Program-made: the position numbers and the translations under genes | Part shown: positions 9,204 through 41,241 of the stretch, one piece after another | Position numbering within the stretch: position 1 is the first letter of the stretch | Layout of the letters: each line of letters starts with the position of its first letter | Assembly: GCA_951804945.1 (NCBI GenBank) | Contig: OX638149.1 | Span: forward strand, 77,190,001-77,254,000 | DNA: 64,000 nucleotides | Direction: 5' to 3' | Source: Podarcis cretensis | Lineage: Eukaryota | The notes under the pieces: model-generated | Databases searched by the model: none | What the model saw: the letters and a program-made list of their open reading frames with translations, nothing else | Told to the model about the DNA's origin: nothing

Positions 9204-10230
9204 TACTTGTGTGCATTCTGTTATATGCATTGTGTGGTTGGTGTTGGCATGAAAAGGTGTTGGGAGGCAAAGTCTAGTTGAGCCCTGGTTCCAGCTTAAC
9301 AAATGGGCAAATGTTGTGGTGCAGATTTGCTGTTAAAAACAATGCTTTCATGATGGAGCAGAAGCTGGGCAATGGCCAGAAATAAGGACAGCTTGGGACT
9401 CCTGTCCAGAACAGTCTTTAATGAGATACATAGTTTTCTCCTGGGTGTGGAGGTGGTGGAGAGGTGAAGTTCAAAGAGTTTCAGGAAGAGGATGTAATGT
9501 ACTGCACTGCCACCCCTGATCACAAGGGAGATGCAATGGATTGTGCAGGAAACTGCCGGCTCAGACGTTAGCTGTTCAGGCTAGTACTCTGCCCACTATA
9601 CCACACTTCCTTCTGCTTTCTGTTGGTGCTTTGGGACCAAGCTTGTATTAAATGGATGAGCAGGGCTGCACAGCCTTCTAAAGCTTCAGTTTGCTGTGCA
9701 GATATATTGACTTGCAAAAACAAAAGGCACCAGAGCTGCTTCTTTTACCCCTGCCGCCTGCCATTCACTAGGGTGGTTGGAGGAAGCGGGGAAAGGGATG
9801 TTGTCCCTTTAAGCAGCTGAGCGAACCATATGCCAGTAGCGTAGCCCTTGAGTTAAACTGCATGTCTGTGTGCTGAGTAAGGAATGTGGTTGCATGCCTG
9901 ACCCGTTAGCTATGACTGCTCCTTAGTGGATCAGCACGGCTGTTGCTCATGTGCTGATCTCATTCAGCCTCATTGGAGCTGGCGCTGCACATACACAAGG
10001 AGTGGAGAGAGGGGGAGAATCGTTCTGCTGAGAAGGAGCAGGAGTATTCCTGTCCTGCTCCCTCCCTCCCTCCCCTTTTTTATTTCTCCAAGAAGCTGGA
10101 TCTAGGGGTGTTTCGGGCTCCCCTACTTTTTTGGGGAAATAAGGAGGCTTCCACCCACCCACCTCTGGCAACTGTTGTTTTGCGAGGGCAGGAGGTAGCT
10201 CTTGGAGAGAGACGCAGCGCAGCTGCCTGG

Positions 10231-10348
10231 ATGCCTTTGGATGTTATGATTGCTCCCTCTGAGGACCAGTTCTGGCCAGACATGCACAAAGAGCAGATGA
10301 AGCTGAAAATCAGGGTGAGACGGATGAAGGAGAGCAGGGAGATGCGAG
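10231..10348 (+). CDS. DUSP8: DUSP8 putative alternative first coding exon (39 aa + 1 nt, MPLDVMIAPSEDQFWPDMHKEQMKLKIRVRRMKESREMR)
   Basis: ATG at 10231, 118 nt open frame, donor AG|GTTGGT at 10349 in phase 1. This matches the phase-1 acceptor at 24588 (G|GG GGC TTT = G-G-F). The peptide resembles an alternative DUSP8 N-terminus I recall from non-mammalian annotations (unverified). Confidence 0.75.
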
Positions 10349-13300
10349 GTTGGTTCCCTGGATTTCCCATCCCTTTTAGATGGGGTGTGTGCATGAGAAG
10401 TGAATGGGGATGGGACTGGAGTGTGCTTGGGGGGGGTGCGGGGGGGGGGGGATGGAGGAATCAATTCTGTTGCCTGAACCATGTCTCCTGCCTCCTGAGT
10501 GTGCCAAGTGGGGAGGGGATTGGCAGCTGGCATCTTGCCATCACAGGACTGGGACAAGTTTAAAATTCTGGCGGCAGGAGGGGGAGAATGCCCATCATTT
10601 CTCCAGCCTTCACAGATGCAGGACACAACAGGCAGCAATCCTAAGCATGCGCATGAAAATCTCATTCGTGAGACTTACTTCTGAGTCAACATGTTCAGAA
10701 TTGGGCTGTTGGAATGTGACAGAGTAACACTCCCCCTTCCCCAGAATAATCAGAAAATGTGCTGCTCTTTCAGTGTAGGTCTTATCTCTCTCTCTCTGTC
10801 TGCTGCAAGAAGATGGGCATTGGGTGATGCTTGCCTTGAGTCCCTCTGTGTTCCTGCATGTGCAGTGCTGCAGCACTCATCTAGAAAAAAGAGTTGCTTC
10901 CCCTTTAACAGGGTCTGGATTTTTTTAAAAAGGATTGGGGGGTCTTAATTTCACAATGAACTGGAATCATTAAAACTGGAATATAATGGGAAACTCAGAG
11001 GAGTGAGGCAGATTCTTCCTTTCTTATGTAACTCACCACATTCTCCAGGGCAGAAGGGTAGGGAGCTGTGGAAATTTCCTGGGGACATCTCCATGCATGA
11101 GAAAGCATCTTGCATTCACTGCTACCTTCTTTAGAGGTCACTTTCTATCCAGTGGATGTGCAGATGGAAGGAAAGGAAGGAAAGGAGGAATTACCTTCTA
11201 GAAAGGCAGAATAAGAGAAGAGGCATCGAGGAAGGTGGGGGCACTATGCTGTCCATAGCTTTAGATCTTGTGCATTTGCTTTGCTGCTCAATATGCCCGA
11301 CTGCATTTCTCTACTGAGAATGACTCCTTTATTGAAAAGGCATCCATAGTGGTTTATTACTTGCAGGGCTATCCCGAGAGGTGAGAAGAGAAATGAAAAG
11401 CAGCTTTAAAAAAGTAGAATGACCTACTTTTACCAAACGATGGAACCATGAAACTTTCCCACAGCCCTTGCACTCTTTACAAAATCAGAATTCTCCTGCA
11501 GCGCTTGGAAGCCCTTTTGTGTCATGAGATGCATAGCCCAGCGATTGTGTCATTAGTAATAAGTCATTTATGGAAATGACACATTTTTCTTTACTTAGAA
11601 CCAGTAGAGCTGGTCCTGGTGAGGCACATTTACCAGAGGAAAATCTAGACCAGCAACTCAGGAGGGCTGATTCTTTCAAGGGTGTTATTGCCCAATCCTT
11701 TTTAAAAAAAATATATTGGTGTTAATGGTTGCTTTCCTATTTACGTAAGGTCTTGCACCTTGGAGAAATATAACAGTTGGCAAAGATTCAAAAAATGAAG
11801 CATGACTGACTTGAGGACAGGGAATGTGGGGTTTTCCCCCCACTCTCCCTTATGGATTCTTCTTTCTGTTGTACACGCAACCCAAAACTGCCTGCCCAAC
11901 AGATGTTAGTTAGTTCAGTAAAAGCAAGAAGCATACTTACTTCTATCCTCTGATACTAGTATAGACAATCAGAACTGGCTATATGCTGCATATAATATGC
12001 CTAAAACATTTTTGTGTGTGACAAGGGGGAACATAGAATGGGTAGAAGTGTGCATAGAGGTTTGGGTCTTTGTATGGTGGTGAACTAAGGTTCCTGTTCC
12101 TTCAGCTAGGAAGAATTTAGATATGATAGTCTTTCATCTGACAAATGATTGAGCTTCCTCACACAATGGCAGTGTCAAAATTGTCTGAATTGGGGGGAAC
12201 AGAAAGTAATTATCCCAGAGTTAAAGATACCTGATGATAATGATGATGCCACCAGCAAAAGTGCCACCAGCCATGATGACAAAGGCATGAAAACAGAGAT
12301 TACTTGATGCAGCACAGGAAGATGGTGAGAGTCAATATAGCAGGGGGCTGTGAGGGGAACAGCTGCAAAGACCAACCGAGCCCTTTCACTGCAGTAACAG
12401 AATTCAAATAGGAACTTGATGAAGTAAGATCCTAAAGCCATTTAAAATGAGGGATCAGGGGAGGCAGTCTCCAGAGACCTAAGAGAGAGTGTCAGTTCTT
12501 TTTTCCCCCTTTTCAGAAAGCTGCTTTAACTGCCATTTTAGAAGCCGGTGTTTGGCTCTGGCGAAACAGCAAATGTTGCCCTTGCAAAAGGGGCCAGTGA
12601 GGCTGCATTGAAAAAATGTGCTGAACATTCCATCCGCTTTGATACATACGAAAAGGGGCTTTATGTGGAATTGGCCAATGTCCAGCAATGGGTGAGATAA
12701 TCGAGCCGATATAAGGAGTAGAACACCATTTGTTACTTGAGGAAGGAAGTCAGAACTGACTTTTGCTAATCCTAGAAGGGGTGGGGGTGGGGAATGCAGC
12801 CAAGTGTCCTTTCCTCGTGAATTTCAGAGAATATTTTGCTGTTTCAGGTCTTGATATATCCCACCCACACTCTTCAGTTATGACAGCTCTCCCTTACTTA
12901 GCCTAGGAAGAACAGAGGCCAAATTCCCATAGCAATATAGTGTGATCTACCTCTGTCACTTGCTTGTTCTGCTGTTTCTCCATACTCAAAAATGCATACC
13001 TGTGCATGGGAGTGAAGGTGTGAAGTAGCCCTGGAAGTGGTGTCACTGCTCTCCTCCTACTTATTTAGCTATGTTGAGAGAGTAACAATGCTCCAGTGTG
13101 ACAGCTAAGCAGGGTTTTGTATGTGACCAAAACATATAGCTCATGCTGGAGGACTCTGCTTTGTGTGGGAACAAAAGAACCAAAATCAGGGCTGTTGTCT
13201 TGCACGTAAAGGCAAGACAGCAGAGCAGATAGCAGAGCAGACCATCTAGCTGCAAAAAGGAAGTAATGGTTGTGAAAGCCAAGGAATTTTCTATGGCAGG

Positions 13301-13699
13301 ACTGAGTAAGATTTTCAAGTGCTGTGATTTCATCATTGGCGAGGCTTGTAATGGAAGCCGTCCTTAAGCAAAAGTACCCCCCCCCCCCGCCACAGCCACC
13401 GCACACCCCTAATGTAAGAGATCGAAGCTAGAATGTAGAAGACTGGGCTTTTCTCAGACATTTAAAGGAGGAAACATAGAATGAAGGTGTTTTGATACAG
13501 GCACACAGTTCCCCTTTTGTGGCTTATCTGTTCCTGACACTTATTTACCTGTTCATCTCTTCCATACTTAAGGCACTGAGTTAACTGCTGTTGAATAAAG
13601 TGTGTGGTGAGTTAATAATAATAATAATAATATCAGCACTACCACTGGCTTGGTAATGGATGATTTTCACATATGGGGAGAAGTGAAAATGACATTGAA

Positions 13700-14978
13700 C
13701 CGTATATCTTGAATTCAGAAAGCCTTTTGACAAAGTCCCCCATGATATTATTGGGGAGAAGCTGGTAATATAAGGGCTGGACAAGGTCACTGTTAGGTGG
13801 ATTTGTAGCTAACTGAACCCCAAGAGTGCTCACTAATGGTTCCTCATCATCTTGGAAAAAAGGGACAAGTGGGGTGCTGCAGGGTTCTGTCCTAGGCCCA
13901 TTGTTGTTCAGCATCTTTATAAATAACTTGGATGAATGAACTAAGGGGATGCTCATGAAATTTGCAGACAACGCCAAGCTGGGAGGGGTAGCCAATGCCT
14001 CGGAAGACAGAATCAGGATTCAAAATGACCTTAATAAATTGGGAAACTGGGCCAAAACTAACTAAATGAATTCCAATAGGGAGAAATATCAGGTTCTATA
14101 CTTAGGCAGGAAGAACCAGCTGCACAAATATAAGATGCTGGGCACCTGGATTGCCAGTAGTACATGTAAAAAGGATCTAGGGGTCTTAGTAGATCACAAT
14201 TTGAACATGAATCAACAGTGTGATGCAGCAACAAAAAAGGCTAATGCTGTTCTATGCTGTGTCAACAGAAGTACAGTGGTACCTCCTGTTGCGAACGGGA
14301 TCCGTTCCGGAGCTCTGGTCGCATCCTGAGGAATTTGCAAAAGGAGGTGATGCTTCTGCGCATGCACGTGACACGGTTTAACTCTTCTGTGCATGTGTGC
14401 AGTACATAGAGCACTTCTGCACATGCGTGCAGGGAGAAACCCTGCAAAATATTTCTGGGTTTGCCGCATACGTATCCCAAAGGATACATAACCAGAGGTG
14501 AACACAAGTAGAGGTACCACTGTATAGTGTTCCAATCAAGGGAAGTTATAGTCCCACTCTATTCTGCCTTTGGCAGACCACACTTGCAGTACTGTTCTGG
14601 GCACTACAATTTAAGAAGGATATTGAGGAACACGTGCAGAGAAGGGTAACCAAGATGATAAAGAGTGTGGAAACCAAACCTTATGATGAATGGTTGTGGG
14701 AATTGGGTATGTTTAGCCTGGAAAAGAGGAGACTAAGAGGAGATATAATGGCCATCTTCAAATATCTAAAGGGCTGTCACATAAAATATGGAACAAGCTT
14801 GTTTTCTCCTGCTCTGGAGTGTAGAACCCGAACCAATGGCTTCAAGTTAAAAGAAAGGAGATTCCAACTAAACCTCAGGAAGAACTTTCCAACAGTAAGA
14901 GCTGTTTGATAGTGGAATGGACTTCTTCAGGTGGTGGTGGACTCTCCATTTAATAGTTTCAAGCAGTGGTTGAATGCC
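13700..14978 (+). mobile_element. CR1 LINE 3' fragment (decayed RT domain), interrupted by a MITE
   Basis: Remnant RT motifs: [62 protein letters not shown]. Contains stops and frameshifts. Confidence 0.92.
14274..14522. mobile_element. Tc1/mariner MITE, second family sharing the CAGTGGTACCTC TIR, nested in CR1
   Basis: TIR CAGTGGTACCTC...GAGGTACCACTG with TA TSD. Removing it restores the CR1 sequence AACAGAAG-TA-TAGTGT. Confidence 0.88.
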
Positions 14979-16132
14979 TACCCCTGGTCTAAATCTTACC
15001 CTAGAGTAGGTGCCCAAATCTCTAGTCACAGGTAGTTTTAAATGCTTTATCAACCAGTCTTGCCTAGCAGATGGCGTCAAGCTCTATTGTCTGAGGGGAT
15101 CACATATCCTTAAAGTACATAAGATGGAAGATGATATACCACTAGCTGCAGTTAAACAAATACAAGGCCCTGAATCATTTGACATCATTTTACAGTTGCC
15201 TAGTCTTTGCTGTCCAAGAGAAGCCACAAGATATATTATTTCTGAGCTAGTTGCTAAACCCAAAGCCAAACTTGTCTCAGAACCTGTTTGCGGGGGAGAT
15301 CTTCCTCCACTCATTGATAGGCAGCTGGCTGGTTGCAGTGGCTTTTTCACCTAAAGAACAGTGTGAAAATGCATGTGCACCACAAAAAAAGCTAAGGCTG
15401 CATCTGCTCCCTCCACTGCCACCACACTGACATGAAAAAAAACATGAGGGGTTTGGAGGTATATTGTTCTCTAGATAATGGACTGTGAAGTGCAGGCCTC
15501 ATTCAAGAGTTCCATACAGATGCTGGCACAATGATTGCATCAATGGCTGAGCAAGCCTTTTGTCCAGATCCTGTGGCTTGGTTTTAAATTGGTGCACGAG
15601 TGACGTACAATCGATCAATGCCACAATGCAGATTGCAAGGGCTGGTTGCACATCGGCGCATAATGATGTTAAACTAACCTGCTGCTTTGTTCCTGTGTGA
15701 AAACAGCTAGGAAAAAAAAAAAGATGAATTGTGAATAATCAGTGGAGTTATCTTGGATGCTGTGATTGCTGGCCATTATTCCTGTATTTTCAAGGGATAT
15801 TTCTAATGTGTAGGCTCAATGCTTGTTCCTGGTTTCATAGACCAGGGATCCAGATATGCTTTATGCAAACAAGCCCAATATATTTTAATTGTTATCGCAG
15901 CCAAATAATAATGTATGCTTGTTCAATACATTAATTCAAAGTGAGTATCTTTATTTAAATCACTGATTTAAGACTGTCTTTTTATTGGTGATGTAATTCA
16001 TATTTCTAACAGCCTTAATTTAAATCAATCCACCTTAGGGGGCGGGAAGGACATTTAAACATGGAATCCATTTGTAAAAGAGTAAAGAACAGAGGGGAGG
16101 GGAAAGAAATGTTTAAGATTAAGGAAGCAAAT

Positions 16133-16232
16133 ATTTAGAAAACTAAGATGTTCAATCTCAAAAAAGGGAAGGGGGAGCAAGAATTTAGAAAACTAAGATG
16201 TTCAATCTCAAAAAAGGGAAGGGGGAGCAAGA
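16133..16232 (+). repeat. Perfect 50-bp tandem duplication
   Basis: ATTTAGAAAACTAAGATGTTCAATCTCAAAAAAGGGAAGGGGGAGCAAGA occurs twice, back to back. Confidence 0.95.
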
Positions 16233-16793
16233 AAATATAACAAGAGGAGCATGAGTGAGATATGTTGAAGGAACAAGAGAAAATTAAAGTAACACATTTG
16301 TCAAAGTAGGAGCAGTTAGCAGCTGTTGCATGGCAGATAGATTCCACCAAAATAGGAGACAACATCATTAGGAGAAAGGCAAGTTCGCACGGCAGGGTTA
16401 GGAGATGAATAAAGAGAAATAATATTTGACAAAAGTTGGCAAGGATTAGATGATGAGCAAAAAAATTGGGGTGTGGGGGGAGAAGCAGAAAGAAAAATAA
16501 GTATTTTGTGACCAAATATTCAAACATGACAACTGGAAACCAAGAGAAATCAAGAGCTGTTGATCAGTGGACAGGTTAGAAGAAAAGTGAAGGAAAAGAA
16601 TGAGCTGTAAATGAACTGACTGCTCTGCAAGGGAACACAGAAGAATAGGTGGGGAAAGAAATCAAGGGCAAAAGAATAGATTAGGAAGAAGAAGAAAAAG
16701 AATCCAAATCAATACAAAACTAAGCAAGGGAGTAGTTGAATTTAGAAGTAGAAATCACAGAGGTAATTAAATTGTAGTTAGGAAGAGGAAACA

Positions 16794-17157
16794 GGGACGC
16801 AGGTGGCGCTGTGGGTTAAAGCCTCAGCGCCTAGGGCTTGTCGATCGAAAGGTCGGCGGTTCGAATCCCTGCAGCGGGGTGCGCTCCCGCTGCTCGGTCC
16901 CAGCGCCTGCCAACCTAGCAGTTCGAAAGCACCTCCGGGTGCAAGTAGATAAATAGGGACCGCTTACCAGCGGGAAGGTAAACGGCGTTTCCGTGTGCGG
17001 CTCTGGCTCGCCAGAGCAGCGATGTCACGCTGGCCACGTGACCCGGAAGTGTCTCCGGACAGCGCTGGCCCCTGGCCTCTTAAGTGAGATGGGCGCACAA
17101 CCCCAGAGTCTGTCAAGACTGGCCCGTACGGGCAGGGGTACCTTTACCTTTACCTTT
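16794..17157 (+). mobile_element. Sauria SINE, full length, young
   Basis: tRNA-like head (A box GGTGGCGCTGTGG, B box GGTTCGAATCC), (ACCTTT)n tail, TSD AGGAAGAGGAA. About 98% identical to the copy at 40883. Confidence 0.93.
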
Positions 17158-19828
17158 AGGAAGAGGAAGACAGAATTGCAAAGACAGCACTGCAAAGTAA
17201 TAACTAAATCTAGAGCAATCTTGGGGAACTAGGGGATTTCCATGGAACTGTAGGGAAGCCAGTATGTGCCAATATTTACAAAGGCGGACAATCTTTAGTG
17301 TAGAGGAATAATAGATTGGCTTCCGCATGATCAAAAAGATGCCAAGTGCTTAAAACATAAATAGCCACCAGGCACCACATTATGGTGGAAACTAGTTCTT
17401 TTCCAGCAAATAGACTTTTTGATACTTTGATGATGGTGATTATATTTCTTTCACATTTCTGGTTTTCATACTATGGTTATTACAGAAGAGAAGGCTTTCT
17501 TGGTGATCAGGCACTAACCTGGGGCTTGCAAGTCTAGCTTTATTGACTTCAGTCTCATGGATGGAAAAGACGGCATCTGCCTGAACTCTGGGGACTTTCT
17601 TCAGAGTTTTCCCAGGCAGCTGCTACCAGCTGGGCTCACTAGGCTGAGAAAGTGATAAACCACGAATGAGTTAGTTGGGTGTTGTGTCTGGAGAAAACCT
17701 TTTCCGTGTGTTCTTTGGGAGTGCAGCCATTGGCTGCTGTGCCACAGATTTCCTGTGTGGCCTTGGAAAAACCTGCTCTGTGTAACATGTGAGATAAAAG
17801 TAACATTTCCACCTCACTCTAATGTTGTGAACAGTGATATGCTCAGGACTGCAGGTGTTCTTCCCCTGTCCACCCCCTAATATTCTTAAGAGGGTCTCTT
17901 CTCCAGTCTTCAGAGAGTAGCTGGAAGTGGCGAGGCTGAAAAAGGTCCTCCTTTCCTTCCACACTGCAGTTTTAATCTGAAAACTTAGGTGCAGTACTAC
18001 ACCCAGAGCTCAGAAACCACTCACGCTATTGAAATTCCCTGTCGCAAAATGCACCTAGAACAATGGGAGTTTCTAACATTGCACTTGACCCTATGCAAAA
18101 CAAACCTTCTTTATGTAGCTTGGGAGACAAAGTGCAAAATTTCCAACTGTAGCTGTGGTCCAGCAAATTCCCAACAAATCATTTGCAATGAGCATGGGGT
18201 AGAGTACAGACTGGGAGAAATGATGTTGGTTGCACAAAGAATGACTGGGTGAATCCAGCCTCTCTAATGGCCTAAACAAGACAAGGATTAAGAAAGCTGT
18301 CTTCTGTGTCATTTAAAAGCATGCTCTTATTTCTCTTGGATGGTATGAGGTAGGATTATTTAATGTCTCCAAGATGCTTTAAGATGCTTAAATAGAAAGG
18401 TTGATTCATGAGTAGCTTGACTGCTAAAATGGGGCCTGCATGTGGAATAGTCCTAACCCTTTTCTGCTGACACCCAGGTGGTGCCCCTGTGATGTCCTAA
18501 TCACTTGTAACCTTTGTATCATATGTTTTAAAAGAGTGAGAGAAACAGGAGCCAAGTGTTCTCTCCATATTAGATCCCATATCTACTCTCAGGTTATAGG
18601 ACACTTTTACTGGAGTTTTGGGTGCTCTGCAGTCCCTGAAATCAGCGGATGCCCTAAAAAAAAAAAAAAAAAAGCTCAACAACTTTGATTTACCCCCGAA
18701 AGCTCCAAGTCACTGCTTGCGTTACCAGAGTTTGGACTAGATAACCCTTGTGGTCCCTTCCATCTCTATAGTTATATCATTCTGTGCTTGGTAATCTTGT
18801 CTAAACCCTCCAGGAAATCTACAGCTCTGGCCAGCCTCAGGATTTTCGACCAGATCTCCTATTGGAGAGAGCACTTATAAGTAATCTGAGAACTCTTTCT
18901 GCCCACGCTGTCCCGCATACAGATGCACTCCCTCTCTTAATTCCACTCATGCCAAGATAATACCACTCCTAGGCCATATAGCTTGACAAATAAAAGAACC
19001 ACAACTGTACAAGGCCAGGCCTTTTGTTATTCCCTGACCCTCCACTTGCTTGATCTGATGCTAGAAGGGCAACTAGCATGTGTTAATAGCAAAGCCAACC
19101 CAATCATCAGTCATGTCTGGAATCCTGCTTGTGGCCTTTGCATTTTTTGCATTAAGCTATGTTGACTTCTTAAGATTAAAAGAGGTTTTAAGGCCACTAT
19201 TGTGGCTGAGAGTTCTGTCCCCCCCCCTCATTCCTTTGAAGGATTGCTTAAACCTCCGTTTAGATTAAGGAAATTAACTATTTAATTGGATATTTAACCC
19301 CCACCCCTGTTCCAGTGGGACTCAGGCAGACTTAATGTTTCTTTATTCTATCCAGTAAATTAGCTTATACAGCCTTTGCAAGATCATGCTCATAATGAGG
19401 CCTGTATCTCTGAAACAAAAGCTTGTTGGGATAGGAGGACGTGTGCCAAGAGTAATATCAGATGCTGGGCCCTCCTTCCCTCAATGAATCCCCACTGGCA
19501 TTCTTAATAGACCCTGCATGCTTGCTTGCATTTTCCTGAACAAAACTAGCAGTGAATCTGCTGACAGTTAAATTCCCTCCGCCTGTATTTTCTAGTAAGG
19601 CTGTTAGAGATAAGAGCAGCCTGGGTCTGAGCAGATTTCTCAGTGCCCCAATTCCTCCCAGCTGAAAATGGGCATAATAGGCAAGTAAATGAATGGCATG
19701 TTTCTCCATCTGCAAAGATTCTAAAACCTCAAGGGGGACGTTTTTGCTGAAATGAATGGGAGCTGTGCAAGAGCTTAGCAGTGCCCAGTGGACTGAGCCC
19801 TAAGACAGAGCTACTGCGCCAACATGGC

Positions 19829-20082
19829 AAGAAGAAGAAGAAGAGTTTGGATTTGATATTTCGCCTTCCACTCCCTTCAAGGAGTCTCAAAGCGGCTCAC
19901 ATTCTCCTTTCCCTTCCTCCCCCACAACAAACACTCTGTGAGGTGAGTGGGGCTGAGAGACTTCAGAGAAGTGTGACTGGCCCAAGGTCACCCAGCAGCT
20001 GCATGTGGAGGAGCGGAGACGCAAACCCGGTTCCCCAGATTACGAGACTACCGCTCTTAACCACTACACCACACTGGCTCTC
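19829..20082 (-). mobile_element. Squam3-type tRNA/CORE SINE
   Basis: Minus strand reads GAGAGCCAGTGTGGTGTAGTGGTTAAGAG...GGGTGACCTTGGG...(CTT)n tail. Second copy at 42727. Confidence 0.85.
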
Positions 20083-22936
20083 AGGTATTACTGAGAGGGT
20101 ATTACTTAAATTAGGAAGTGGTAGGGCACAACCCTGCACTACATGACCTCCTTCCTATGACACCCTGCAGCATAGTGACAACTGGCAACCGCATCACTCT
20201 GCAATACAGATTACAACAGGGCAAGAAGTGATGCAGTGATGCATAGCACATGTATGACCAATTCACACCACAGTACAGATTATTTAGCACATGCCCAGTG
20301 TAAAATCAACCCATAGCTTTGTGCTCCAGGACATGCAACCTTGTTTCTTTGTCTCTTGCATCTATTGGGAGACAAAAAAAGCAAGCAAAAAACAACAACC
20401 CCCCCTTCCTGCCTGACACGCTGAGTGCTGGCTATTCTTAGCTTTTCTTCTGAGTATTCAGAAAAACACATTAGGGAAGGAGGAAATTATAGCTCGATAG
20501 CATGCATAAGGGTGCCAGGCTCAGTTTCTGACATCTTCAGTTAAAAGATCATGAGCACAATAGATCTGATGGCAGCAGACCTGTATGCTTAAATGTGGCT
20601 CTACCCCCAACCACATGGAAGAAGGGAGAGGTTGTTTTTTAGGGACAAATACATGGCAACCCGGTGTTCACAGCTTACCTGTCCACAGTTTCTGTGATGG
20701 TTCTCTCCTTCTTTCCTTCTCAGCTAAACTCCAGTAGCAGGAGTGTGCTCAACTGAGAAAAGTGCTTGAAGAGTAAGGACCACAGGGACATAAGCTGCAA
20801 GCAAGGGGAGGTTTCTGCACTCATTTTGCTGTTAAAAACAGACCGTTCACTCCCTCTTTCTGCAGTTCTGTCTTGAGGGGGTTGAGTGGAGAGATCTATA
20901 TCTAAATGCACAGATCTGCCACTGCCAGAGCTAGTTTGAACCTTAGCCTTAGAGAGCCTCTACCAGTCAGAATACACAATTCTGTCCTCTAGATGGACCA
21001 GTTGACTCAACTCGGCATAACACTGCTTTATCCATTTGCAACAATACAACAAGCTGTGTAGAGGATGACTTCTTTTGTCTAGTCTTTCCAGATGCCCAGG
21101 TCTTGACTCCTGGATTATCCGCCAACACCCCTCATTCCACGAAAAAATAGAGAATTACATATGCTTATATACACACTTCCCAACCCCGTAATTTATGCTT
21201 CATGGTGAAATTGATGCAATTGTGGTGCGGGGGGGGGGGGGTGAGGGAGGCAGCTAGGAGTAACCAGAGCTCATGTGCACCTGTGCTAATCTTGTTTCGT
21301 TCATTCTGATTTAATATCCCAGTTGAGGGGTGATGTCATGCCACAAAGAGCCACAGAGGAAGTGGTGTTGCAAAGTGCATTTAACTCCTCACATCCCGAA
21401 TGGACAAGACTTGGTGATTTAAAAAATAAATAAATTCTAGTATTTATCTGGCAGCAGAAATAGTGTTGTTCACAAATATTATTAGTGTTTAGGAATTGGG
21501 GGGTTTTTGTTTAGTTAGTTGCCAGATTCTGCAGGGAAAGCAAAAAATATACCCTGTGAAGCATTAGATCAGAAGGCTGTCTCAAGGAAGATGCTTGTGT
21601 GAACTGTATGGTCAGACTTTACCTTCTGATAAGAGTGTCCAGGAACAGTATTTTACGTAAAAGGTGGCTTTTCATTTGTGCCTGGCGCGAGGTGGAAAAC
21701 ACAAGTCCTTTGTAAAACAATTTTTTGTCAAACTGTATTATAAATTGGTGGTTAGGCAAATATTTCCTCCTACTGAACCTTTGTAGCTTTTCCCAATTTA
21801 GTTGTGTCAATCCAATATAAGATGTGCAATTTGGAAAGTAAGCTTCACAGAATCTCGCTACTAAACATCAGTGTTTTAGAAGAAGCCATTATCACCGATA
21901 TGTCCTTGCTGCTCAGTTTTGGGAAGCTGATCAGAACAAGAACATGCCTGACGCTCTAAGCTAGAACAAGATCTGTTTGATTCAGGTGCTGCTTGCTATG
22001 CCATGTTCTGCAACATCTGCGGGGGGGGGGGGATCACTGTGATCTGTTCAGAAATGAGATCCTGCCATCTATCTCAGCCGCCCACCCAGTATATGGGCTC
22101 GCTTTCCTAATTAGTATTGTACACGGGGCCGCTTTATCGGCCATCCACTTGGGCATGAAATAGAAAAGAGCTCTGTGTGCATGCGTGGGAGCCACAAAGA
22201 GAGAGGCAGACTACTGAAATGCAGCATGACTTTGACGTAGGTCTGTTTCAAGTACAAAGGCCTGCAGCTATGTATGCTGTGATTCAGCTGGAGATTACAG
22301 ATGATGGACCAGGGGAACAGGGATCTACCAGTAACAGACTGGCGCAGTCAAAGGATCCTAGGAGTGATTTCCTAAGCCACTGATTTTCAGATTGTTCCAG
22401 AGGGAACACTAGGGTGAGGATCCTCAATGAGAAGATCACTCAGGGCTTTCCTGAAAGGCTGCTTTTACCCAATGTCACAATTCTTCCCTCTGAATATGCG
22501 GCTTCAGCAAAGTCTTGGATGTGTTTGAGGTTGATAGTCTTCAATCTTAATAGATCCAGGTCCTATCTTTAAATGAAATGTACATTGGGGGCACGTCCCG
22601 CTTCTTAATTATTATTTTTTAACATATATTTGTGTGGTGGCAGTGCCGTTGGTGCAACCCAACTTAGTATCCTAGGTCACATTCTGATTTCACTCGGGGT
22701 AGCAGGGAGACTTGACACATCCAGCCACTGCCCTGAAGAAACCAAGGGTGTGCTCTAGAAAATGCCCTAAATTTGTCTACAGCACACTGGGTTATCCCGG
22801 CAGCCATAGCAAGGCTTCCTTGGCAGAGAGGTCAACACAGAAAATGTACCAAAAGGTAGGCAATTTGAAGAAACACTGCTCTGGGCAACGCTTTCCCCGC
22901 AGTCACTTCTAAACCTACAACAACACCACTGGCAAC

Positions 22937-23140
22937 TGCCGTTTCTCAGATGACAAGCGTTGCTCACATGTGGCTGCTAAAGATCCCAGGGGGGGTATTT
23001 ATAAAAGAGGAGTAAAATTAGCCCATAGCATCCTGGCCAAATTCCAGTGCAGGTAATTTATTTCCTGCCTTCCTAGAATTACATGCACACACATTCTCTC
23101 TCTCTCTCTCACTCCACCCCCACCCCCTGCAGATTCAATT
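22937..23140 (+). mobile_element. AmnSINE1-like (Deu-domain) ancient SINE fragment
   Basis: Collinear blocks GCCGTTTCTCAGATGA, TGTGG..TAAAGATCCCA, TCCTGGCCAAATTCCA, GGTAATT..CTGCCT.CCT and CCCCCTGCAG.TTCAATT match my recollection of the AmnSINE1 core. A ~35-bp simple-sequence insertion interrupts it. Confidence 0.7.
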
Positions 23141-24587
23141 TATTTTATTTAGCATGGTGTGTTTATCTGCTGCTCTCCTGTCACTAAGATACTTGGTTGC
23201 TTGTAATCATTTAAAAATCTGCAGGCTGGAATCAGCCTATGCTGCTTGCTCATGCAGCTGGGAGGCGACAGCCTCCTAAAACGTTAAAGGGTAATGTAAA
23301 AAATAGTTTATCCTGTTGGTGAGTTACTGGGGATTGACAGTAGACAGGACATGTGAATCGGCTGGTGCCCCCCCCCAAAAAAAAAACCCAGTACCAAAGA
23401 TATGCACAGTAATCGGAAGAGAAATGGTGAATGGTAAATCCACCCTCTGTTTACTATTATAGTAAAGGCTGAAGGAATGAAGCGATTAATGGATATGATA
23501 AATGAGCTGATTCATTAAACTCAGATTTAAAATGTGGGGTTTTTATTGGAGCGTGCAGCACACTCGATTTGGTGCTCAGTGCGGATGACAGCGCTGTTGA
23601 AAGCATTGCATGTCTCAGGATTTCAGCAGGGCGTTTATTTCCCAAAGGGAAAACAGTGCAATGTTGTTGGTTAGTCCACAGAATTGTTCGCCTTCATTTC
23701 AATATCCACAAAACAGCACACTTCTTTGAGTATGTTAATATTTATTTCAGTCAGTTGATTAGTGAACCTAGTAATAGGTGGAGAGCCCTAGCCCTTTGCA
23801 GAGAGACCACACACAATGCTTCATGCACCAAGGGTTGGGGGCAGACGGCAGGACTGCAACAAAGGAGTGAGCCAAGTGTGACAAGGGAGGCGGGTTTAAA
23901 AGCCATTAAAAGCAGGGGTGGGAATGCTGATGATGGACTCCAGTACCATCAGCCCCAGCCAGTGTGGCCAGTGGTCAGGAATGATGGGAGTTGTAGTGCA
24001 ACACTACCTGGAGGGATCACAGGTTCTCTAGCCTTTCATTAGATGCCAGGGAAATACCTGTCTTTGTAATAGGTAAGTGAGCAGGGAAGTTTATAGATTC
24101 TAGGGACTAATCATAAAAAGATGAATTTTACACACCCAGACAATCCGTGTCAGCAGAGGTCCAGTGTTATCCCCAAGAGTGTTGCTTTATTTTTATTTTT
24201 GCTAATGAACAGAATTGTTGCCTTTCCCGTCCTCTAGAGGACAGAAGGGGACATGGCACCAGAAGCCCATCATCTGTAACCAAGGCAAACGGCGAAGGAG
24301 CTTGCTTTTATATGCATCTAGTATCTAATGCTCTTGTGGGAGCTTAGGGTCTTAATATGTAACATTATGCATTTATATTATGTGAGAATAAAATATAAGG
24401 TTTCCCTTCAGTGTGGAAGAATGGGGTTTAATTGTCCTCTTTACCACAGGGTCATTATTTGACTTTGGGACTTTGCTTCCAGTTCTCTGATTCAGTTCCC
24501 TATCTGCAGAATTTTCATAAAAATCAGTTTGTGGGAAAATGGGGATAGTTGCTGAATAACATTATTCCCTCCATTCTCTTTCTCCAG

Positions 24588-24754
24588 GGGGCTTTGCCAC
24601 CTTCTCATCTTGCTTCCCAGGACTCTGCGAAGGGAAACCTACTGCTATCCTGCCAATGAGCATCTCCCAGCCATGCATGCCAGTGGCCAATGTTGGCCCA
24701 ACTCGCATCTTGCCTCATCTCTACCTAGGCTCCCAGAAAGATGTCTTAAATAAG
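24588..24754 (+). CDS. DUSP8: DUSP8 coding exon (GGFATFSSCFPGLCEGK...TRILPHLYLGSQKDVLNK)
   Basis: Polypyrimidine tract + CAG acceptor (ends 24587), 167 nt, donor AG|GTACAT. The translation is near-identical to human DUSP8 (end of rhodanese domain, start of DSP domain). Confidence 0.97.
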
Positions 24755-24882
24755 GTACATCATGTAAAGAAGAAGAAGAAGGGGAGGGAGGGAGGGAGGG
24801 AGGGAAGTGTAGCTTGCCTTAAAGAAACCCTTCTCCTTAAGACTTGGGAGAGCAGGTGGGTCACCTGTGTGGGAAACTATAT

Positions 24883-25121
24883 CATGGGTAGGCAAACTAA
24901 CCTCTGGGGGCTGGATCCAGCCCAATCGCCTTCTCAATCCGGCCCGCAGATGGTCTTTTTACATGAGTAGAATGTGTGCTTTTATTTAAAATGCATCTCT
25001 GGGTTATTTGTGGGGCATAGGAATTCATTCATTTTTTTTTCTTCAAAATATAGTCTGGCCCCCCCACAAGGTCTGAGGGACAGTGGACCAGCCCCCCACT
25101 GAAAAAGTTTGCTGACCCCTG
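24883..25121. mobile_element. hAT non-autonomous element, family B
   Basis: Ends CATGGGTAGGCAAACT...AGTTTGCTGACCCCTG. TSD is degenerate (TATAT shared). Confidence 0.88.
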
Positions 25122-26295
25122 CTGTATATTGTCTGATCAGGACAGGGGTGGGCCATTTTTGAATTGTGCAGCAAAACAGAGCTATAGACGTGAGCTCCCT
25201 TTTGAAGTGCTAAGGACATTAGCAGCAGGAGCATCAAAACTGCAACATTGACCCTGAGAGATCTTTATGACAGGGGAGCCAGCTGTTTCTTGCCAGAGCC
25301 CAGTGCCAGCCAAGCTAAAGAATAACACTGACCTCAACTCTTCCATGTCCAGCCTCAGAGCCAGAGGATGAGGTATTAAGCTTGGCATTCAACAGTGACT
25401 GATGGTGAGGTGAGGGCAAGGGAGAGTGTAGGGAACGGCAGCCCACATCTGCAAGCAAAGAACCCTTTGAGCAGGCCCCAAAATGGACAAAGATCTGCTT
25501 TGGGAGTTGGAGAGGGGAGGGAACAGGCAGCATCCTCTCAAAGGACACCAGAATGCTTGGGCTATGATATCACATCGGGGAAGAGAATTTCATTGAAAGA
25601 AAAAATAATACAAGTTAGAAGAAGAAAGAAACCGCAGTTGTTGTGAACATACCAGTGGGCACAAATCCTGGGCAGGAGAGAGCCAGTTGGGCATTCCTGC
25701 CTTGGGGGGAGGGTTAGGTAGAAGCGCCTGAACTAGAAACACTGAGAGGGGAAGGGGGAACATTTTACACAGGGAGTAGAAGGGAATGGGGGAGAAAAAT
25801 GCCAGGAATGTGAGCTCTGGAGCTCGGCTGGCTCCTAGGGACCGAGGTGAGAGTTATTACACAGAGACTACTTGGAAAATGGAGCCACAGAACTCGGGGG
25901 GGGGGCATAGCATTGGGCATCAGTAGCTGAAAACAGGAGGAATGGAATATGAGTGGGAACCCCAAAGAACTTTGCTCTGGATATTTTCTGTAAAACTCTG
26001 CTTTTAGAAGTGAGTCTTGGCTTCCCTACAGAAGTCCTGCTTTTTTCATTTTGGCAGCAGCCAGTGGTTTTTACTGAATCTTCATTGACCTCAGGCAACA
26101 GTGCCCAGCTGGCGGCCCAAACAGCCCCCTCTGTGATAGCACAGCCATACATTGCAGGCTGGGCAGCCTAGTAGCCAATGGAGGAGAAAGAAGAGGAGGC
26201 AATGACATCCTCAGGGCCTCTGGAAGAGTGGGTGAAAACATCCTACACTGGACTGCCAAACATCCATTGCTTCTCTCTTTCTCTCTCTCTCTCAG

Positions 26296-26455
26296 GACCT
26301 GATGACCCAGAATGGGATAAGCTATGTCCTCAACGCCAGCAACTCTTGTCCCAAGCCAGATTTCATATGTGACAGTCACTTCATGCGCATTCCAGTCAAT
26401 GACAATTACTGTGAGAAGCTTCTGCCCTGGCTGGACAAGTCCATTGAATTCATTG
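26296..26455 (+). CDS. DUSP8: DUSP8 coding exon (DLMTQNGISYVLNASNSCPKPDF...WLDKSIEFI)
   Basis: (CT)n tract + CAG acceptor, 160 nt, donor G|GTAAGA. Phase 0 to 1. Contains the general-acid Asp (VNDNYCE). Confidence 0.97.
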
Positions 26456-27440
26456 GTAAGACTGCAGACCAGCCACATTTGGGGCAGTTCATTAGTTCTT
26501 CTGGGCTGTAACCTTGGTTGCTGCAAAAGGCATCTGGGCAATAGTGGCTGCGTGGTTCATTTCCCCTCATGCACATGCACAGACTTCTGGTTTTTGTTTT
26601 TTGTTTAACTCTGATGTGTCCAAAACACTCAGTCTGCCCTTGGGAGGCACACTTTCTCCCTTTGTACAAAACAACCATCCTGTCCCCAGACAGCAAAGCT
26701 ACCAAGACTGTTGTAAACCCATAGCATCACCTGAGGTATAGCTAACACCACTTGGGAGAACAGTTGCTGCTACAGAAAGAAATGCCTCTTGCTCTATCAA
26801 GGTGCTTTTCTTTATCAACAACAACTATGCTCTTTCTGGTTCCAAAGATGATTGATTAAATGAGACTGGGAGTTCAAATAGTAATTTTCTTCCTAGCAAA
26901 TAGAGAGGGTGGGGAAAATAAAAAAAAGTCTCTTTAAAGCATATACTAGTGAATGGTTTGTTTTTTTAAAGAATAATAATATTAGCAACCCTTTGCAGGC
27001 CAGGAAGTCCCTCCACTATTTCTCATCAGATAAAACAGCAACATTATTGACAAGCCAAGAAGCCAAATAAACAAGTCCTGGTTTATAGCTTCCACTTCTT
27101 GGTTGCACATATTTGACTTACTTAAACCATTTAGATTTGTGTTTTTCCTCTTTATTTACTCTTCCAATTTTGTTAAAAAGCGTCTTCCTTCAGAGTCATT
27201 TCCAGAGAGGTAGCTGTGTTAGCATGCAGCAGGAAAAACAACCAAGACACTTGTGGCGCCTTAAAAGACTGACAGATTTATTACGTTCAAGCTTTTGTGA
27301 AGGGGCTTCTGGTCCACAAAAGCTTATGCTGCCATAAATCTTTGAGCCTTTGGGGCACTGCAAGTCTCTTTGTTGTTCAGAACAACGTAGATAGTAGAGT
27401 CCCAGAATATCGACCTGAAGGCTGTTTTCTTCTGCTGCAG

Positions 27441-27564
27441 ACAAGGCCAAGGTGTCCAGCTGCCAAGTGATCGTTCACTGCCTGGCAGGGATCTCCCGAT
27501 CGGCCACCATTGCCATTGCATACATCATGAAGACCATGGGGATGTCTTCAGATGATGCCTACAG
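27441..27564 (+). CDS. DUSP8: DUSP8 catalytic exon (DKAKVSSCQVIVHCLAGISRSATIAIAYIMKTMGMSSDDAY)
   Basis: CAG acceptor at 27440, 124 nt, donor AG|GTAAGT. Intact HCxxGxxRS PTP signature. This exon is missed by the ORF track. Confidence 0.97.
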
Positions 27565-28402
27565 GTAAGTTGCTTTCTGAAAGAGAGGGCACTAATGTTT
27601 TTCTTTGCATTTGACTTTGGGGTGTGGTTTTTTTCTTTAAAGTGGTGCCGTTTATCATGAAGCATACTTTCCATGTGTCTCGCTCAAGGGTACTGGCTAA
27701 TAAGCATGAAAGAACATAGTGCCATATACATTATAGGGTTGATTCCAATCATAGTCCTACCAGGTGTAAACCCATGGAAATCAATGGACGTGACTATCTC
27801 AGGTCCATTAACTTTAGCAGGTCTAGTCTGATAATACCTTAGTTAGATACCTCCAATAATCTACCTGTGCTGTGTTTTCAGTTACTCATTTGCCAGTTTC
27901 TTCAGTGTAAGCTTACCAGGCTGGTTTGCATGACTGTCAGGCTTGTAGTTGCCACTTGAATCTCATCTGCAGGTTGGCTCCCAGCCTGTTGCCAGCTGGT
28001 CCCCATGCATGTGCCAGCAGGCTCACAGCAGACGTAAGTGTTTAGCTGTTAGTGGCAACATGCAAAAAAAGAAGGAAAAGAAAGAAAAGAAACACCTTGG
28101 TGTGACATGTGGCAGTGGCAGAATGGGGACAAGGAGCCAACATCCACAGACAGATCCCATGGCTACTGCCGTGAGTCTGAAGGTTGTCCGAAATGACCAT
28201 TGCATAAACAAGGAGCAATCTTTAAAGCATCACATTACACCCCTACTCCTTGATGTCCCAGGATGTGGGGGGGGGGGGGACAGATCCAGCCGATTTCCAG
28301 TGCTGCATTGAATCATACAATTCTTGCAGCATCCCGCACCCAAATCCTTAGAAGTAAGAAAGGGCCCAGTAACAACTGCAGCTGTCTCGTTTGCCCCAAC
28401 AG

Positions 28403-29516
28403 GTTTGTAAAAGACCGGCGTCCCTCCATCTCGCCCAACTTTAACTTCCTGGGTCAGCTCCTAGAGTATGAGAGAAGCCTGAAGCGGCTCAAGGCTCTGA
28501 AGGCCCAAGGGGAGAAGGGCGAAGGGGAATCCCAGCAAGACCAGCCAGAAGCCCCTGAAGGCTACAGGCACCAGATTCTGTCTACCTCAGAAAAGGCTGA
28601 GGAGCTATTCAGAAGCACAACCTCGGAGACCTCCTCGCTTGACTCCGAGAAGCCAGTGGGAGTCTCCAAGGTTGTCTCGCCTACAGCACTGCAACAAGGG
28701 CTCCGTGGCCTCCACTTGTCTTCGGAGCGCATCCAAGACACCAACCGGCTGAAGCGTTCCTTCTCCCTGGACATCAAGTCAGCCTACACCCCTAGCCGGA
28801 GGCAGCAGGACCCTCCAGGTCCAACAGAGGCAGGAGAAACCCCCAAGCTGTGCAAGCTGGACAGCCCATCAGGTCCCAACGGCACATGCCAGTTCTCCCC
28901 TGTCCCAGACAGCCCAGACTGGCCCAGCGGGCCCGACTTCCTCCTCGAGGCCAAAGTACGGCAGAGACGGAAGCACAGGCACCAAGCCGGCTCCCCTGCC
29001 CACGGGCTGAGCCTTAACTTCAGTGGGGTGTGCGCCATGCACAAGAGCGCCAGCGTGGAGGACAGCCTCAAGCAGACGCTTCGGGCGGGCCTCCCCGGTG
29101 TGGGGCAGCAGCCGACCGCCACCCCGGCGCCCACCGGCACTTGGGGGGTGCACTTGGAGTCCCCTGGCACCCCTTCCTCTGAGAACCCCTGGTACTTCAG
29201 CACAGACTCAGCGGCGGGCAGCAAAGGCAGCGGGAGCGGGACTCTGTTTGCCGGCGCCACCACCTACTCCTCCTTCAGCTGCAGCACAATCCAGGCGAGC
29301 TGCGAGATCAGGCTGAGGGACAAGCAGCGGGGCGAGCCGCGGGACGTGCGGCACAGCTGGCACGAGGACACCGCGGCCGAGAAGCAGTTCAAGCGCAGGA
29401 GCTGCCAGATGGAGTTCGAGGAGACCCTGTCGGAGAGCAGGTCTCGGGAAGACCTGGGCAAAATCAGCAAACAGTCTAGCTTTTCGGGCAGCATGGAAAT
29501 CATTGAGGTGTCCTGA
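28403..29516 (+). CDS. DUSP8: DUSP8 terminal coding exon (RFVKDRRPSISPNFNFLGQLLEYE...SFSGSMEIIEVS*)
   Basis: CAG acceptor at 28402, phase 2 continuation, TGA at 29514-29516. DUSP8/16 tail motifs LQQGLRGLHL (NES-like), LKRSFSLDIK, QFKRRSCQMEF and IIEVS are present. Confidence 0.97.
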
Positions 29517-30621
29517 CACTCACCTTGTGAGATCTGAGAGCAAGTTGCGTGTGCATCAGTGGGTGGGTGGGGAGGGGGAAGGCTGGCAAGATATTTAACT
29601 AGGGAGAGGGAAGGGGGAGGGGAGGGTATTATTTATATGCCTGTGTGCGTTTCCAAAGGGCACACATGCTGAAGCAAAGGCAAAGCTAAACGAATCCAAA
29701 GTCAAGAAACATAACGGTGCATGCTTGGTGCCCTCCCCTTTATGTTCCTACCTCCACCACCAAGGCAAAACCACACCGCATTCCCTTTGTTGGCTGGTGG
29801 AGGGTGTATTAACTCTTTAAAGCCTGGATTCCTTCCTTTCGCATGTAGTGCTCTCTCTGCCCACCCGCCCCCCCCCCAAAAGGCAGGGGGAAGGGGAGAG
29901 CTGAGGTGTAACTTCAAAGGTGGGGTGAAAGAGAAACAGGGGAGATATTAACATTGTAAAGACTTCCACTGATGTAAAAGCTTTTTTTTTCATTGAAAGA
30001 AGATTATTGTTGTTTGATCTGCAGGTTTGCAGTGGGGGAAGTCTAAAGGGAAGCAGGTTCTTTTCTTGTGAGAGTACATTAGCAACTGTTGATATTACCC
30101 ACCCGCTCCCATTACAGGAGGAGAGCTTCCCTCCCGTTCCATCAGGGTGGGACATTATCTGTGGGTGGCTCCTTCCCAGATTGGGCTGCAGAAACCTGGA
30201 GGGGCTAAATTTCAATAGCTTCCCTAGGTGTGTCCCCCCCTTCCCATACTGAGCATGCTCCTCTTGTGTTTCTCTGGCTAGAATTCTTAAATGCTGCACT
30301 GCGGCAGCCCTATACATATATAAATATATATTATATATAATATAAGAGAGAGAGAGAGAAACACAAAGAAAAAAGTTTAAATGGTTTTACTACAGTTTTT
30401 ATTGAGACAAATAATATTTCAACTTTTCTTTTTAATTTATTTGAAGCTTTTCATTCTGGCAATGATTTTCAGACAATGTAGGGGCGGTACTTATCAGCTC
30501 TATTTTTACTGTGTATGGTATTTAAATCTGAAACACGAGTTTCAAAGCAATATCCTAGGCCTGCGGCTCCTTCTGTAACTCACGTCAGTGACGCAGACAC
30601 CCCAAAAAGTGGGATGAGAAA

Positions 30622-30623
<2 letters not shown>

Positions 30624-30668
<45 letters not shown>
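30624..30668. repeat. (TG)n(AG)n compound microsatellite in the putative 3' UTR
   Basis: Direct reading. Confidence 0.95.
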
Positions 30669-33354: not shown

Positions 33355-33390
33355 AATAAAAAATCCTACACAAGACAAAAAATAAATAAA
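33355..33390 (+). terminator. Candidate polyadenylation signals (AATAAA at 33355, 33381, 33385)
   Basis: Three AATAAA hexamers after a U-rich stretch (33170-33350). An alternative AATAAA lies at 31906. Confidence 0.4.
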
Positions 33391-33842
33391 AATCTCAGGT
33401 TCAGAGCTTACCAACACAAACCACAGGGAGCAGCAATATGATGTTTTTGCATCAGATTGTCTGTTTCCTGACTGTAACAATTGCTGTCTGTACTCTACCA
33501 AGACATAAGGTAGAGACCTCATGATACTTATTTTACCAAAATATTTTCATATTAGATGCTGCAAGCTCAGAAGTGATCCGACTGACCTGCATAGTATTTT
33601 GAAAGTAGCATGACAGAGTAGTAGGGGCTGGGGGAAGTGGAATAGGATAAACATGGGTAACCTAGGTTGAGAGTTTCTTTTTGATCCCTCTTCACATCTT
33701 CAACCATAACTTAATGTATCTGGGTGCTTAATGTATATTGATGCTTTCAGATGCTTTAAGTTCAGAATCCTCATTTCCTCCAGTAGATTGCATCCAAAGG
33801 GTGGATTAACCCTTTAGCAGCATGAAACTCCATGTTTTAAAC

Positions 33843-40882: not shown

Positions 40883-41241
40883 GGGGAAGCAGGTGGCGCT
40901 GTGGGTTAAAGCCTCAGCGCCTAGGACTTGCCGATCGAAAGGTCGGCGGTTCGAATCCCTGCGGCGGGGTGCGCTCCCGCTGCTCGGTCCCAGCGCCTGC
41001 CAACCTAGCAGTTCGAAAGCACCTCCAGGTGCAAGTAGATAAATAGGGACCGCTTACCAGCGGGAAGGTAAACAGCGTTTCTGTGTGCGGCTCTGGCTCG
41101 CCAGAGCAGCGATGTCACGCTGGCCACGTGACCCGGAAGTGTCTCCGGACAGCGCTGGCCCCTGGCCTCTTAAGTGAGATGGGCGCACAACCCCAGAGTC
41201 TGTCAAGACTGGCCCGTACGGGCAGGGGTACCTTTACCTTT
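40883..41241 (+). mobile_element. Sauria SINE, full length, young
   Basis: Same sequence as the 16794 copy. 13-bp TSD TAAGAAGGGAAAT. Confidence 0.93.

What the first reader, a model, noticed from the sequence alone, without database searches (positions are those of the whole stretch)
10231..29516. Alternative DUSP8 isoform that replaces the MAPK-docking rhodanese domain with a 39-aa peptide
Seen: a 118-nt ATG-initiated frame ends in a phase-1 donor that joins exon 24588 in frame. Exon sum 118+167+160+124+1114=1683 nt gives 560 aa with an intact catalytic site. Known: DUSP8/DUSP16 use the N-terminal rhodanese/KIM domain for MAPK docking. Inference: an internal promoter about 14 kb upstream of the catalytic exons yields a docking-less phosphatase with different substrate range or localisation. 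I recall a similar N-terminus in fish and sauropsid gene predictions but not in the canonical human protein, which would make it an ancient and little-studied isoform.
Basis: partly seen in the sequence, partly recalled or inferred. Interest (0 to 1): 0.72.

Follow-up and report, generated by a model that had tools for sequence, protein, structure and literature searches.

The report
Ancient short DUSP8 phosphatase isoform
This reptile's DUSP8 gene, a brake on stress signalling, holds a second start exon, conserved from fish to birds, that is predicted to swap the kinase-docking domain for a 39-residue peptide; databases and a 2025 chicken study already describe such a short form, and what the peptide does is untested.

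Summary
Five exons give 1683 nt and 560 aa with an intact HCLAGISRS. The rhodanese exons lie upstream of the window, so the 118-nt exon sits in the intron after them and its 39 residues replace canonical residues 1-123. The peptide starts RefSeq DUSP8 'isoform X2' models in squamates, a turtle, birds, a caecilian, lungfish, paddlefish and teleosts, and a coelacanth model; three teleosts have it on two proteins each. One lizard-fish pair gives dN/dS about 0.17 and the same donor position. A few stranded reads cover the exon region; the junction was not listed. It is not new: PMC12536144 (2025) describes a chicken intron-3 promoter and rhodanese-less isoform. 'Docking-less' overstates it: the FNFL site that binds JNK1 in DUSP16 is kept (PMC4802042). 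I found no paper on the peptide's conservation or on its near-invariant LKIRV core, which resembles BET ET-domain ligands. No mammal appears among 120 of 158 hits listed. The scan's earlier notes hold nothing on DUSP8.

The parts
9850..10230 (+). Likely 5' UTR of the short transcript; start site not mapped. Holds five short upstream ATG frames (9862, 9884, 9894, 9912, 9949; 2-10 codons).
   Evidence: Contigs of runs guessed to be RNA cover 9850-10007 and 10062-10329; stranded reads lie in bin 9620-10256; uATGs
10231..10348 (+). Alternative first coding exon: 39 codons plus 1 nt, phase-1 donor GAG|GTTGGT
10297..10323 (+). Codons 23-31, the most conserved core (MKLKIRVRR); resembles the K-phi-K-phi / LKIRL ligands of BET ET domains
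   Evidence: L25, K26, R28, V29 invariant in 75 of 75 unique peptides; motif from PMC11939847 passages
24588..24754 (+). First shared exon: last residues of the rhodanese region, linker, start of the catalytic domain
26296..26455 (+). Catalytic-domain exon
27441..27564 (+). Catalytic-domain exon with HCLAGISRS and the Tyr that aligns with the DUSP16 AYRF tyrosine
28403..29516 (+). Last coding exon: FNFL F-site motif, end of the catalytic domain, long disordered tail, stop

Best explanation
The DUSP8 intron that follows the rhodanese exons holds a conserved ATG-initiated exon that likely serves as the first exon of an internal promoter and is predicted to splice in frame onto the catalytic exons, giving a 560-residue phosphatase without the KIM domain that likely still binds and dephosphorylates JNK through its retained FNFL site. 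Shown here: exon anatomy, the open spliced frame, position downstream of the rhodanese exons, conservation across bony vertebrates, and retention of the catalytic and FNFL motifs. Shown in chicken: an intron-3 promoter drives a rhodanese-less isoform that is the more abundant form in muscle. Inferred from DUSP16: the short form loses high-affinity D-site association with p38 but keeps catalytic-domain recognition of JNK, so promoter choice changes kinase anchoring more than catalysis. Inferred from conservation: the peptide is a short disordered targeting or partner-binding motif rather than a mere translation start.
For: Anatomy. Same N-terminus in named isoform X2 models from teleosts to birds. 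107 of 127 catalytic-domain proteins carrying the peptide start at its Met. dN 0.23 against dS 1.36 for one lizard-fish pair, with no alignable flank. In 27 teleost proteins the peptide is 51-67% identical to a lizard's, against 23-44% for the tail. Sense-strand reads in the two bins over the exon and none in the next three intron bins, in both raw runs. Chicken promoter marks and CRISPRa (PMC12536144). DUSP16 catalytic domain alone binds JNK1 with unchanged kcat/Km (PMC4802042); residues 73-217 of the short form align to that solved domain including FNFL. AlphaFold2 gives the N-terminus no secondary structure and mostly pLDDT under 50.
Against: The junction read was not listed; depth on the exon bins was under 1 and the runs may be of a related species. 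I did not see the chicken protein, so that it begins with this peptide is inferred from intron position and from duck and goose models. No protein-level detection in any species was seen. PMC4802042 also reports that DUSP16 without its N-terminal domain handles p38 with kinetics like JNK1, so a shift in substrate range may be small. The mechanism is carried over from DUSP16, not measured on DUSP8. The peptide set was collected by similarity, which inflates its conservation. dS is near saturation and rests on one pair.
Confidence: 0.65

Rival explanations
1. The peptide is a BET ET-domain ligand. Its LKIRV core would add a beta-strand to the ET domain of BRD2/3/4 and tether a JNK phosphatase to chromatin.
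For: Published consensus K-phi-K-phi, and LKIRL binds BRD4-ET at 145 nM (PMC11939847 passages); the core is a five-residue hydrophobic/basic motif that tolerates Arg (10.1101/2021.07.15.452438 passages). LKIRV is in 72 of 79 unique peptides of a pattern-selected set. L25, K26, R28 and V29 are invariant in 75 of 75 in the profile-collected set. None of 6 long isoforms has phi-K-phi-[KR]-phi.
Against: The motif is short: 2-4% of shuffles of this peptide contain it. Strict K-phi-K-phi is present in only 34 of 79 (Arg in the rest). Conservation extends to R36, R39, W15 and M1-P2-x-D4, which an ET motif does not explain. DUSP16, the closest paralogue, is mainly cytoplasmic (PMC9676401).
Confidence: 0.1
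2. The basic stretch is a plain nuclear-import or membrane/microtubule targeting signal, or a replacement MAPK-docking strand.
For: 8 Lys/Arg lie in residues 23-39, behind an acidic first half. The canonical KIM is also a basic cluster (PMC6712826), and that review lists the DUSP8 nuclear signal as unmapped.
Against: By recalled consensus it is neither a classical monopartite NLS nor a canonical D-motif. The fixed hydrophobic alternation is more than a charge patch needs.
Confidence: 0.25
3. The exon is also, or mainly, a cassette inside the long transcript, inserting the peptide behind an intact rhodanese domain.
For: The frame is open from 9958, with phase-1 AGs at 9967 and 10186. 4 of 127 proteins carry both the rhodanese KIM region and the peptide.
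Against: Both phase-1 acceptors are weak, and the best pyrimidine tract (10092) is phase 0. Sequence conservation starts only about 5 codons before the Met. 107 of 127 start at the Met. The chicken data show a promoter. A contig runs unspliced across 10092 and 10186.
Confidence: 0.08
4. The exon is conserved for regulatory reasons (promoter or splice elements) and the peptide is passive.
For: AlphaFold2 sees no structure in the peptide. The Kozak context is weak (T at -3, C at +4).
Against: Changes concentrate at third codon positions (18, against 3 at second) and the flanks do not align between lizard and fish. Indels in relatives keep the frame.
Confidence: 0.1

Closest known systems
Chicken short DUSP8 isoform XM_004941446.5 / XP_004941503.2 (PMC12536144, 2025; seen: abstract passage, section 3.5 whole, other passages, three supplement rows)
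   Same: Promoter in intron 3, conserved frame, rhodanese/KIM lost, catalytic domain kept; reported more abundant than the long form in muscle
   Different: In the passages I saw, the paper treats the N-terminus as truncated and does not discuss the new peptide or its conservation. I did not see the chicken sequence.
RefSeq DUSP8 isoform X2 models (e.g. Elgaria XP_062973199.1, Candoia XP_063145410.1, Rhinatrema XP_029438166.1, Danio XP_005170737.1)
   Same: Same N-terminal peptide joined to the same downstream exon; 88-92% identity for squamates over 560 aa
   Different: Automatic models with no function assigned
Human DUSP4 short isoform, 303 aa (Cadalbert 2010; seen only as a passage and a reference in PMC6600639)
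   Same: [quoted passage not shown]
   Different: Different MKP subgroup; no relation of its N-terminus to this peptide was tested
DUSP16/MKP7 catalytic domain bound to JNK1 (PDB 4yr8; PMC4802042; seen: abstract, sections 5 and 10)
   Same: Short DUSP8 residues 73-217 align to it, FNFL included
   Different: An engineered fragment. The matching intron of the lizard paralogue has no counterpart of the exon (best E 0.47, opposite strand).

Membership tests
DUSP8 (MKP subgroup with DUSP10 and DUSP16) | DSPc catalytic domain with HCxxGxxRS | tested here: met
   HCLAGISRS at 161; PF00782 E 2e-45 on the 92%-identical P0005; best PDB hit DUSP8 4jmk E 6e-91
DUSP8 (MKP subgroup with DUSP10 and DUSP16) | Gene has rhodanese/KIM exons upstream | tested here: met
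   G000:C1:77165051-77165254 and 77181429-77181567, the latter ending in phase 1
Typical MKP protein | Rhodanese domain with KIM in the protein | tested here: not met
   PF00581 is found in long P0094 and in none of 4 short isoforms scanned; KIM is at 53 of the long form only
Typical MKP protein | FXF (FNFL) docking site in the catalytic domain | tested here: met
   FNFL at 203-206, aligned to DUSP16 4yr8
Alternative-promoter isoform | Spliced junction from the exon to the shared exon in this lineage | tested here: inconclusive
   Not among 15 joints shown; 76 more were not shown; depth under 1
Alternative-promoter isoform | Transcription start and promoter marks upstream of the exon | tested here: inconclusive
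   Sense-strand reads and contigs reach about 9850; marks are shown for chicken only
Alternative-promoter isoform | Coding constraint on the exon | tested here: met
   dN/dS about 0.17 for one pair; column conservation in 75 unique peptides
BET ET-domain ligands | K-phi-K-phi / phi-K-phi-[KR]-phi motif | tested here: met
   KLKI / LKIRV; phi-K-phi-[KR]-phi in 78 of 79, strict K-phi-K-phi in 34 of 79 (pattern-selected set)
BET ET-domain ligands | Measured binding as an antiparallel strand to the ET domain | not testable with these tools
   Needs ITC, NMR or pull-down

The most novel reading that the evidence does not exclude
The 39-residue start is a binding module as old as the bony vertebrates. 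It trades MAPK D-site docking for an LKIRV strand that binds BET ET domains, so promoter choice turns DUSP8 into a chromatin-tethered, muscle-enriched JNK phosphatase that fish, amphibians, reptiles and birds keep and mammals may have lost.
Probability: 0.08. Interest if true: 0.72.

Novelty: already known. Interest (0 to 1): 0.3.

Why it matters
In chicken the short form is reported to be the main DUSP8 transcript of muscle, and its promoter region carries the top GWAS signal for meat nucleotide content (PMC12536144). Work on DUSP8 in fish, reptiles and birds that assumes the canonical protein may therefore describe the wrong form. The conserved peptide gives a concrete target for testing how the short form is placed in the cell. 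The isoform itself is already annotated and published, so the added value is its age and the candidate motif.

Tried and rejected
Complex prediction of the peptide with a lizard BET ET domain: no answer, scores 0.16 and 0.27 against a mark of 0.34; alignments were not used and controls were not folded. Sequencing-run search: no RNA holder listed; the 14 rows guessed as RNA are not on record as such. Pfam: 0 families for the peptide. PDB profile search: 6 hits, best E 0.096 (TFIIS), taken as chance. ESM Atlas: best score 0.82, a lead only. One of 24 representative hits (P0089, 36% identity, 5 stretches) taken as chance. Counterpart exon in the paralogue's intron: none (17 kb fetched). Second copy in this genome: none, 1 match of 2 candidates. 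Rfam: 0 matches in the window. My first exon-3 coordinate was off by one and was corrected. The core conservation was forced by the pattern and was redone with a profile. Paper searches: DUSP8 + isoform + alternative promoter 5 papers; + splice variant + rhodanese 0; + short isoform + MAPK 2; three of five DUSP8/hVH5/isoform terms 28 papers, 15 listed; + rhodanese + isoform + lacks 1. Only PMC12536144 described the isoform among those I read or saw listed. Two reviews (PMC6712826, PMC13147768; passages) showed no DUSP8 isoform passage. Subscription journals are not covered, and bioRxiv supplements could not be seen. Mammals could not be tested directly: no tool holds mammalian genomes.
Full report
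OBSERVATION. The exon chain is as described. ATG 10231 to donor 10348 (118 nt), then 24588-24754, 26296-26455, 27441-27564 and 28403-29516, all bounded by AG/GT, give 1683 nt and 560 aa with HCLAGISRS at 161. The window holds no rhodanese exon. Both lie upstream in the same contig, at G000:C1:77165051-77165254 and 77181429-77181567; the second ends in phase 1, 18.7 kb before the alternative ATG. The new exon and that canonical exon therefore compete for the same acceptor at 24588, and 39 residues replace canonical residues 1-123, including the KIM at 53. The genome holds one copy of the exon. The protein is 88-92% identical to squamate isoform X2 proteins, so the window is from a squamate.

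CONSERVATION. The 40-residue frame found 26 of 26 candidates, 25 at E<1e-8, the named ones being DUSP8 models of a boa, an anguid lizard, Komodo dragon, a turtle, ratites and other birds. A region search returned 60 of 60, adding teleosts and the caecilian Rhinatrema. A profile search scored 7996 candidates; 158 passed E 10 and 120 were listed, adding coelacanth, lungfish and paddlefish. Megalops atlanticus, Chanos chanos and Aldrovandia affinis each have two different proteins with the peptide, which fits retention in both teleost duplicates. No mammal, frog, crocodilian or shark is named among the listed rows, but 38 hits were not shown, many rows are unnamed and the search needs shared words, so loss is not shown. 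Of 205 proteins held, 169 matched the profile and 127 of these have the catalytic domain (75 unique peptides). W15, L25, K26, R28, V29, R36, R39 and G40 are invariant in 75 of 75, and M1 and P2 in 74. 107 of 127 start at this Met, and 4 also carry the rhodanese KIM region. The set was collected by similarity, which inflates these figures. In 27 teleost proteins the peptide is 51-67% identical to the lizard reference P0005, the catalytic domain 84-91% and the tail 23-44%. One fish-type locus from a metagenome record has the same 118-nt length and GAG|GT donor; 15 codons are identical, 12 synonymous and 12 changed, dN 0.23 and dS 1.36, with no alignable flank. That is one pair near saturation, but it points to selection on the protein.

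EXPRESSION. Two raw RNA runs, about 12% of each read, show reads on the strand expected for a + transcript in bins 9620-10256 (depth 0.65, 0.58) and 10257-10893 (0.77, 0.53), none in the next three bins, and similar depth at the last exon (0.56, 0.30). Contigs of two runs guessed to be RNA cover 9850-10007 and 10062-10329. That is a few reads per bin, possibly from a related species. The junction was not among the 15 joints shown (76 more not shown; repeats dominated). Transcription is thus weakly supported here and the splice rests on other species' models.

PRIOR KNOWLEDGE. PMC12536144 (2025) reports that chicken DUSP8 has seven long models and one short, that an intron-3 region near the short form's start has DNase, H3K4me3 and H3K27ac marks in muscle, that CRISPR activation of it raises the short transcript, and that the short protein lacks the rhodanese domain and is the more abundant form in muscle. 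Its Table S8 row gives about 2020-2320 after activation against 1070-1330 in mock. I did not see the chicken protein; that it begins with this peptide is inferred from intron position and from duck and goose models. A KIM-less isoform is also known for human DUSP4 (passage in PMC6600639). In the searches listed under Tried and rejected no paper on the peptide or its conservation turned up.

MECHANISM. For the closest paralogue, DUSP16, the catalytic domain alone binds JNK1 through FNFL and has the same kcat and Km as the construct with the N-terminal domain, while that domain gives high-affinity association with p38 (PMC4802042). The short DUSP8 keeps the whole solved catalytic region and FNFL at 203-206. 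It is therefore likely an active JNK phosphatase with weaker p38 anchoring. The same paper says removal of the domain does not drastically change catalysis on p38, so a true change of substrate range is uncertain. AlphaFold2 on 42 sequences folds the catalytic domain (elements at residues 78-226) and leaves residues 1-74 without secondary structure, mostly under pLDDT 50, as expected of a linear motif. The most conserved part alternates hydrophobic and basic residues (MKLKIRVRR). It matches the published ET-domain ligand pattern and four of five residues of LKIRL. Such a motif arises in 2-4% of shuffles of the peptide; the full eight-residue alternation arises in 0.02%, but that pattern was written after seeing the sequence. 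I put the ET reading at about 0.1 and a plain targeting signal at about 0.25. A cassette use of the exon is not excluded, since two weak phase-1 acceptors lie in the open frame upstream. The matching intron of the paralogous gene on contig C5 (named DUSP16 by inference from 78% and 52% exon matches) has no counterpart, so the exon looks DUSP8-specific.

VERDICT. A real, ancient exon and very likely a real isoform, already in databases and described in chicken. What is open is the role of the conserved peptide and its fate in mammals. Interest 0.3. The scan's earlier notes held nothing on this sequence or gene.

Noticed in passing
window 9958-10230: The peptide's frame stays open for 91 codons upstream of the ATG. 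Some bird models also extend upstream (duck X1, 110 aa more), but lizard and bird extensions share only the last few residues.
   Followed up: partly
window 10228-10249: The first ATG has a weak context (T at -3, C at +4). An out-of-frame ATG follows at 10241 and an in-frame ATG with G at -3 at 10246. Sauropsids mostly have Met at residue 6 and fish Val, so leaky scanning could give a second start.
   Followed up: no
window 10231-10242: M-P-x-D is almost invariant at the very N-terminus. After Met removal this would expose Pro1, a possible N-terminal recognition or degradation signal (recalled, untested).
   Followed up: no
P0057, P0071, P0072, P0200 (junction region): Caecilian and some teleost models use downstream in-frame donors that add about 4-12 residues after the peptide. 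In the lizard an in-frame GT lies 36 nt downstream (10385).
   Followed up: partly
window 13700-14950: Decayed retroelement fragment with many expressed look-alike copies in the RNA runs; resembles a CR1 LINE (name recalled).
   Followed up: no
window 16790-17158, 19840-20085, 24900-25100, 41040-41200: Short interspersed repeats with very high read depth for the first three; the first and last resemble squamate SINEs (name recalled).
   Followed up: no
window 16116-16235: A unit of about 50 nt is duplicated in tandem in a purine-rich intronic stretch.
   Followed up: no
window 55449-56201: A 226-aa stop-to-stop frame resembling the endonuclease part of a LINE ORF2 (by eye, not tested).
   Followed up: no
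window 29517-33400: The first AATAAA/ATTAAA lies 2.4 kb after the stop, with two more near 3.8 kb, suggesting a long 3' UTR.
   Followed up: no
G000:C10:28809024-28824535: A cluster of four rhodanese-domain matches within 16 kb on both strands, probably tandem sulfurtransferase genes.
   Followed up: no
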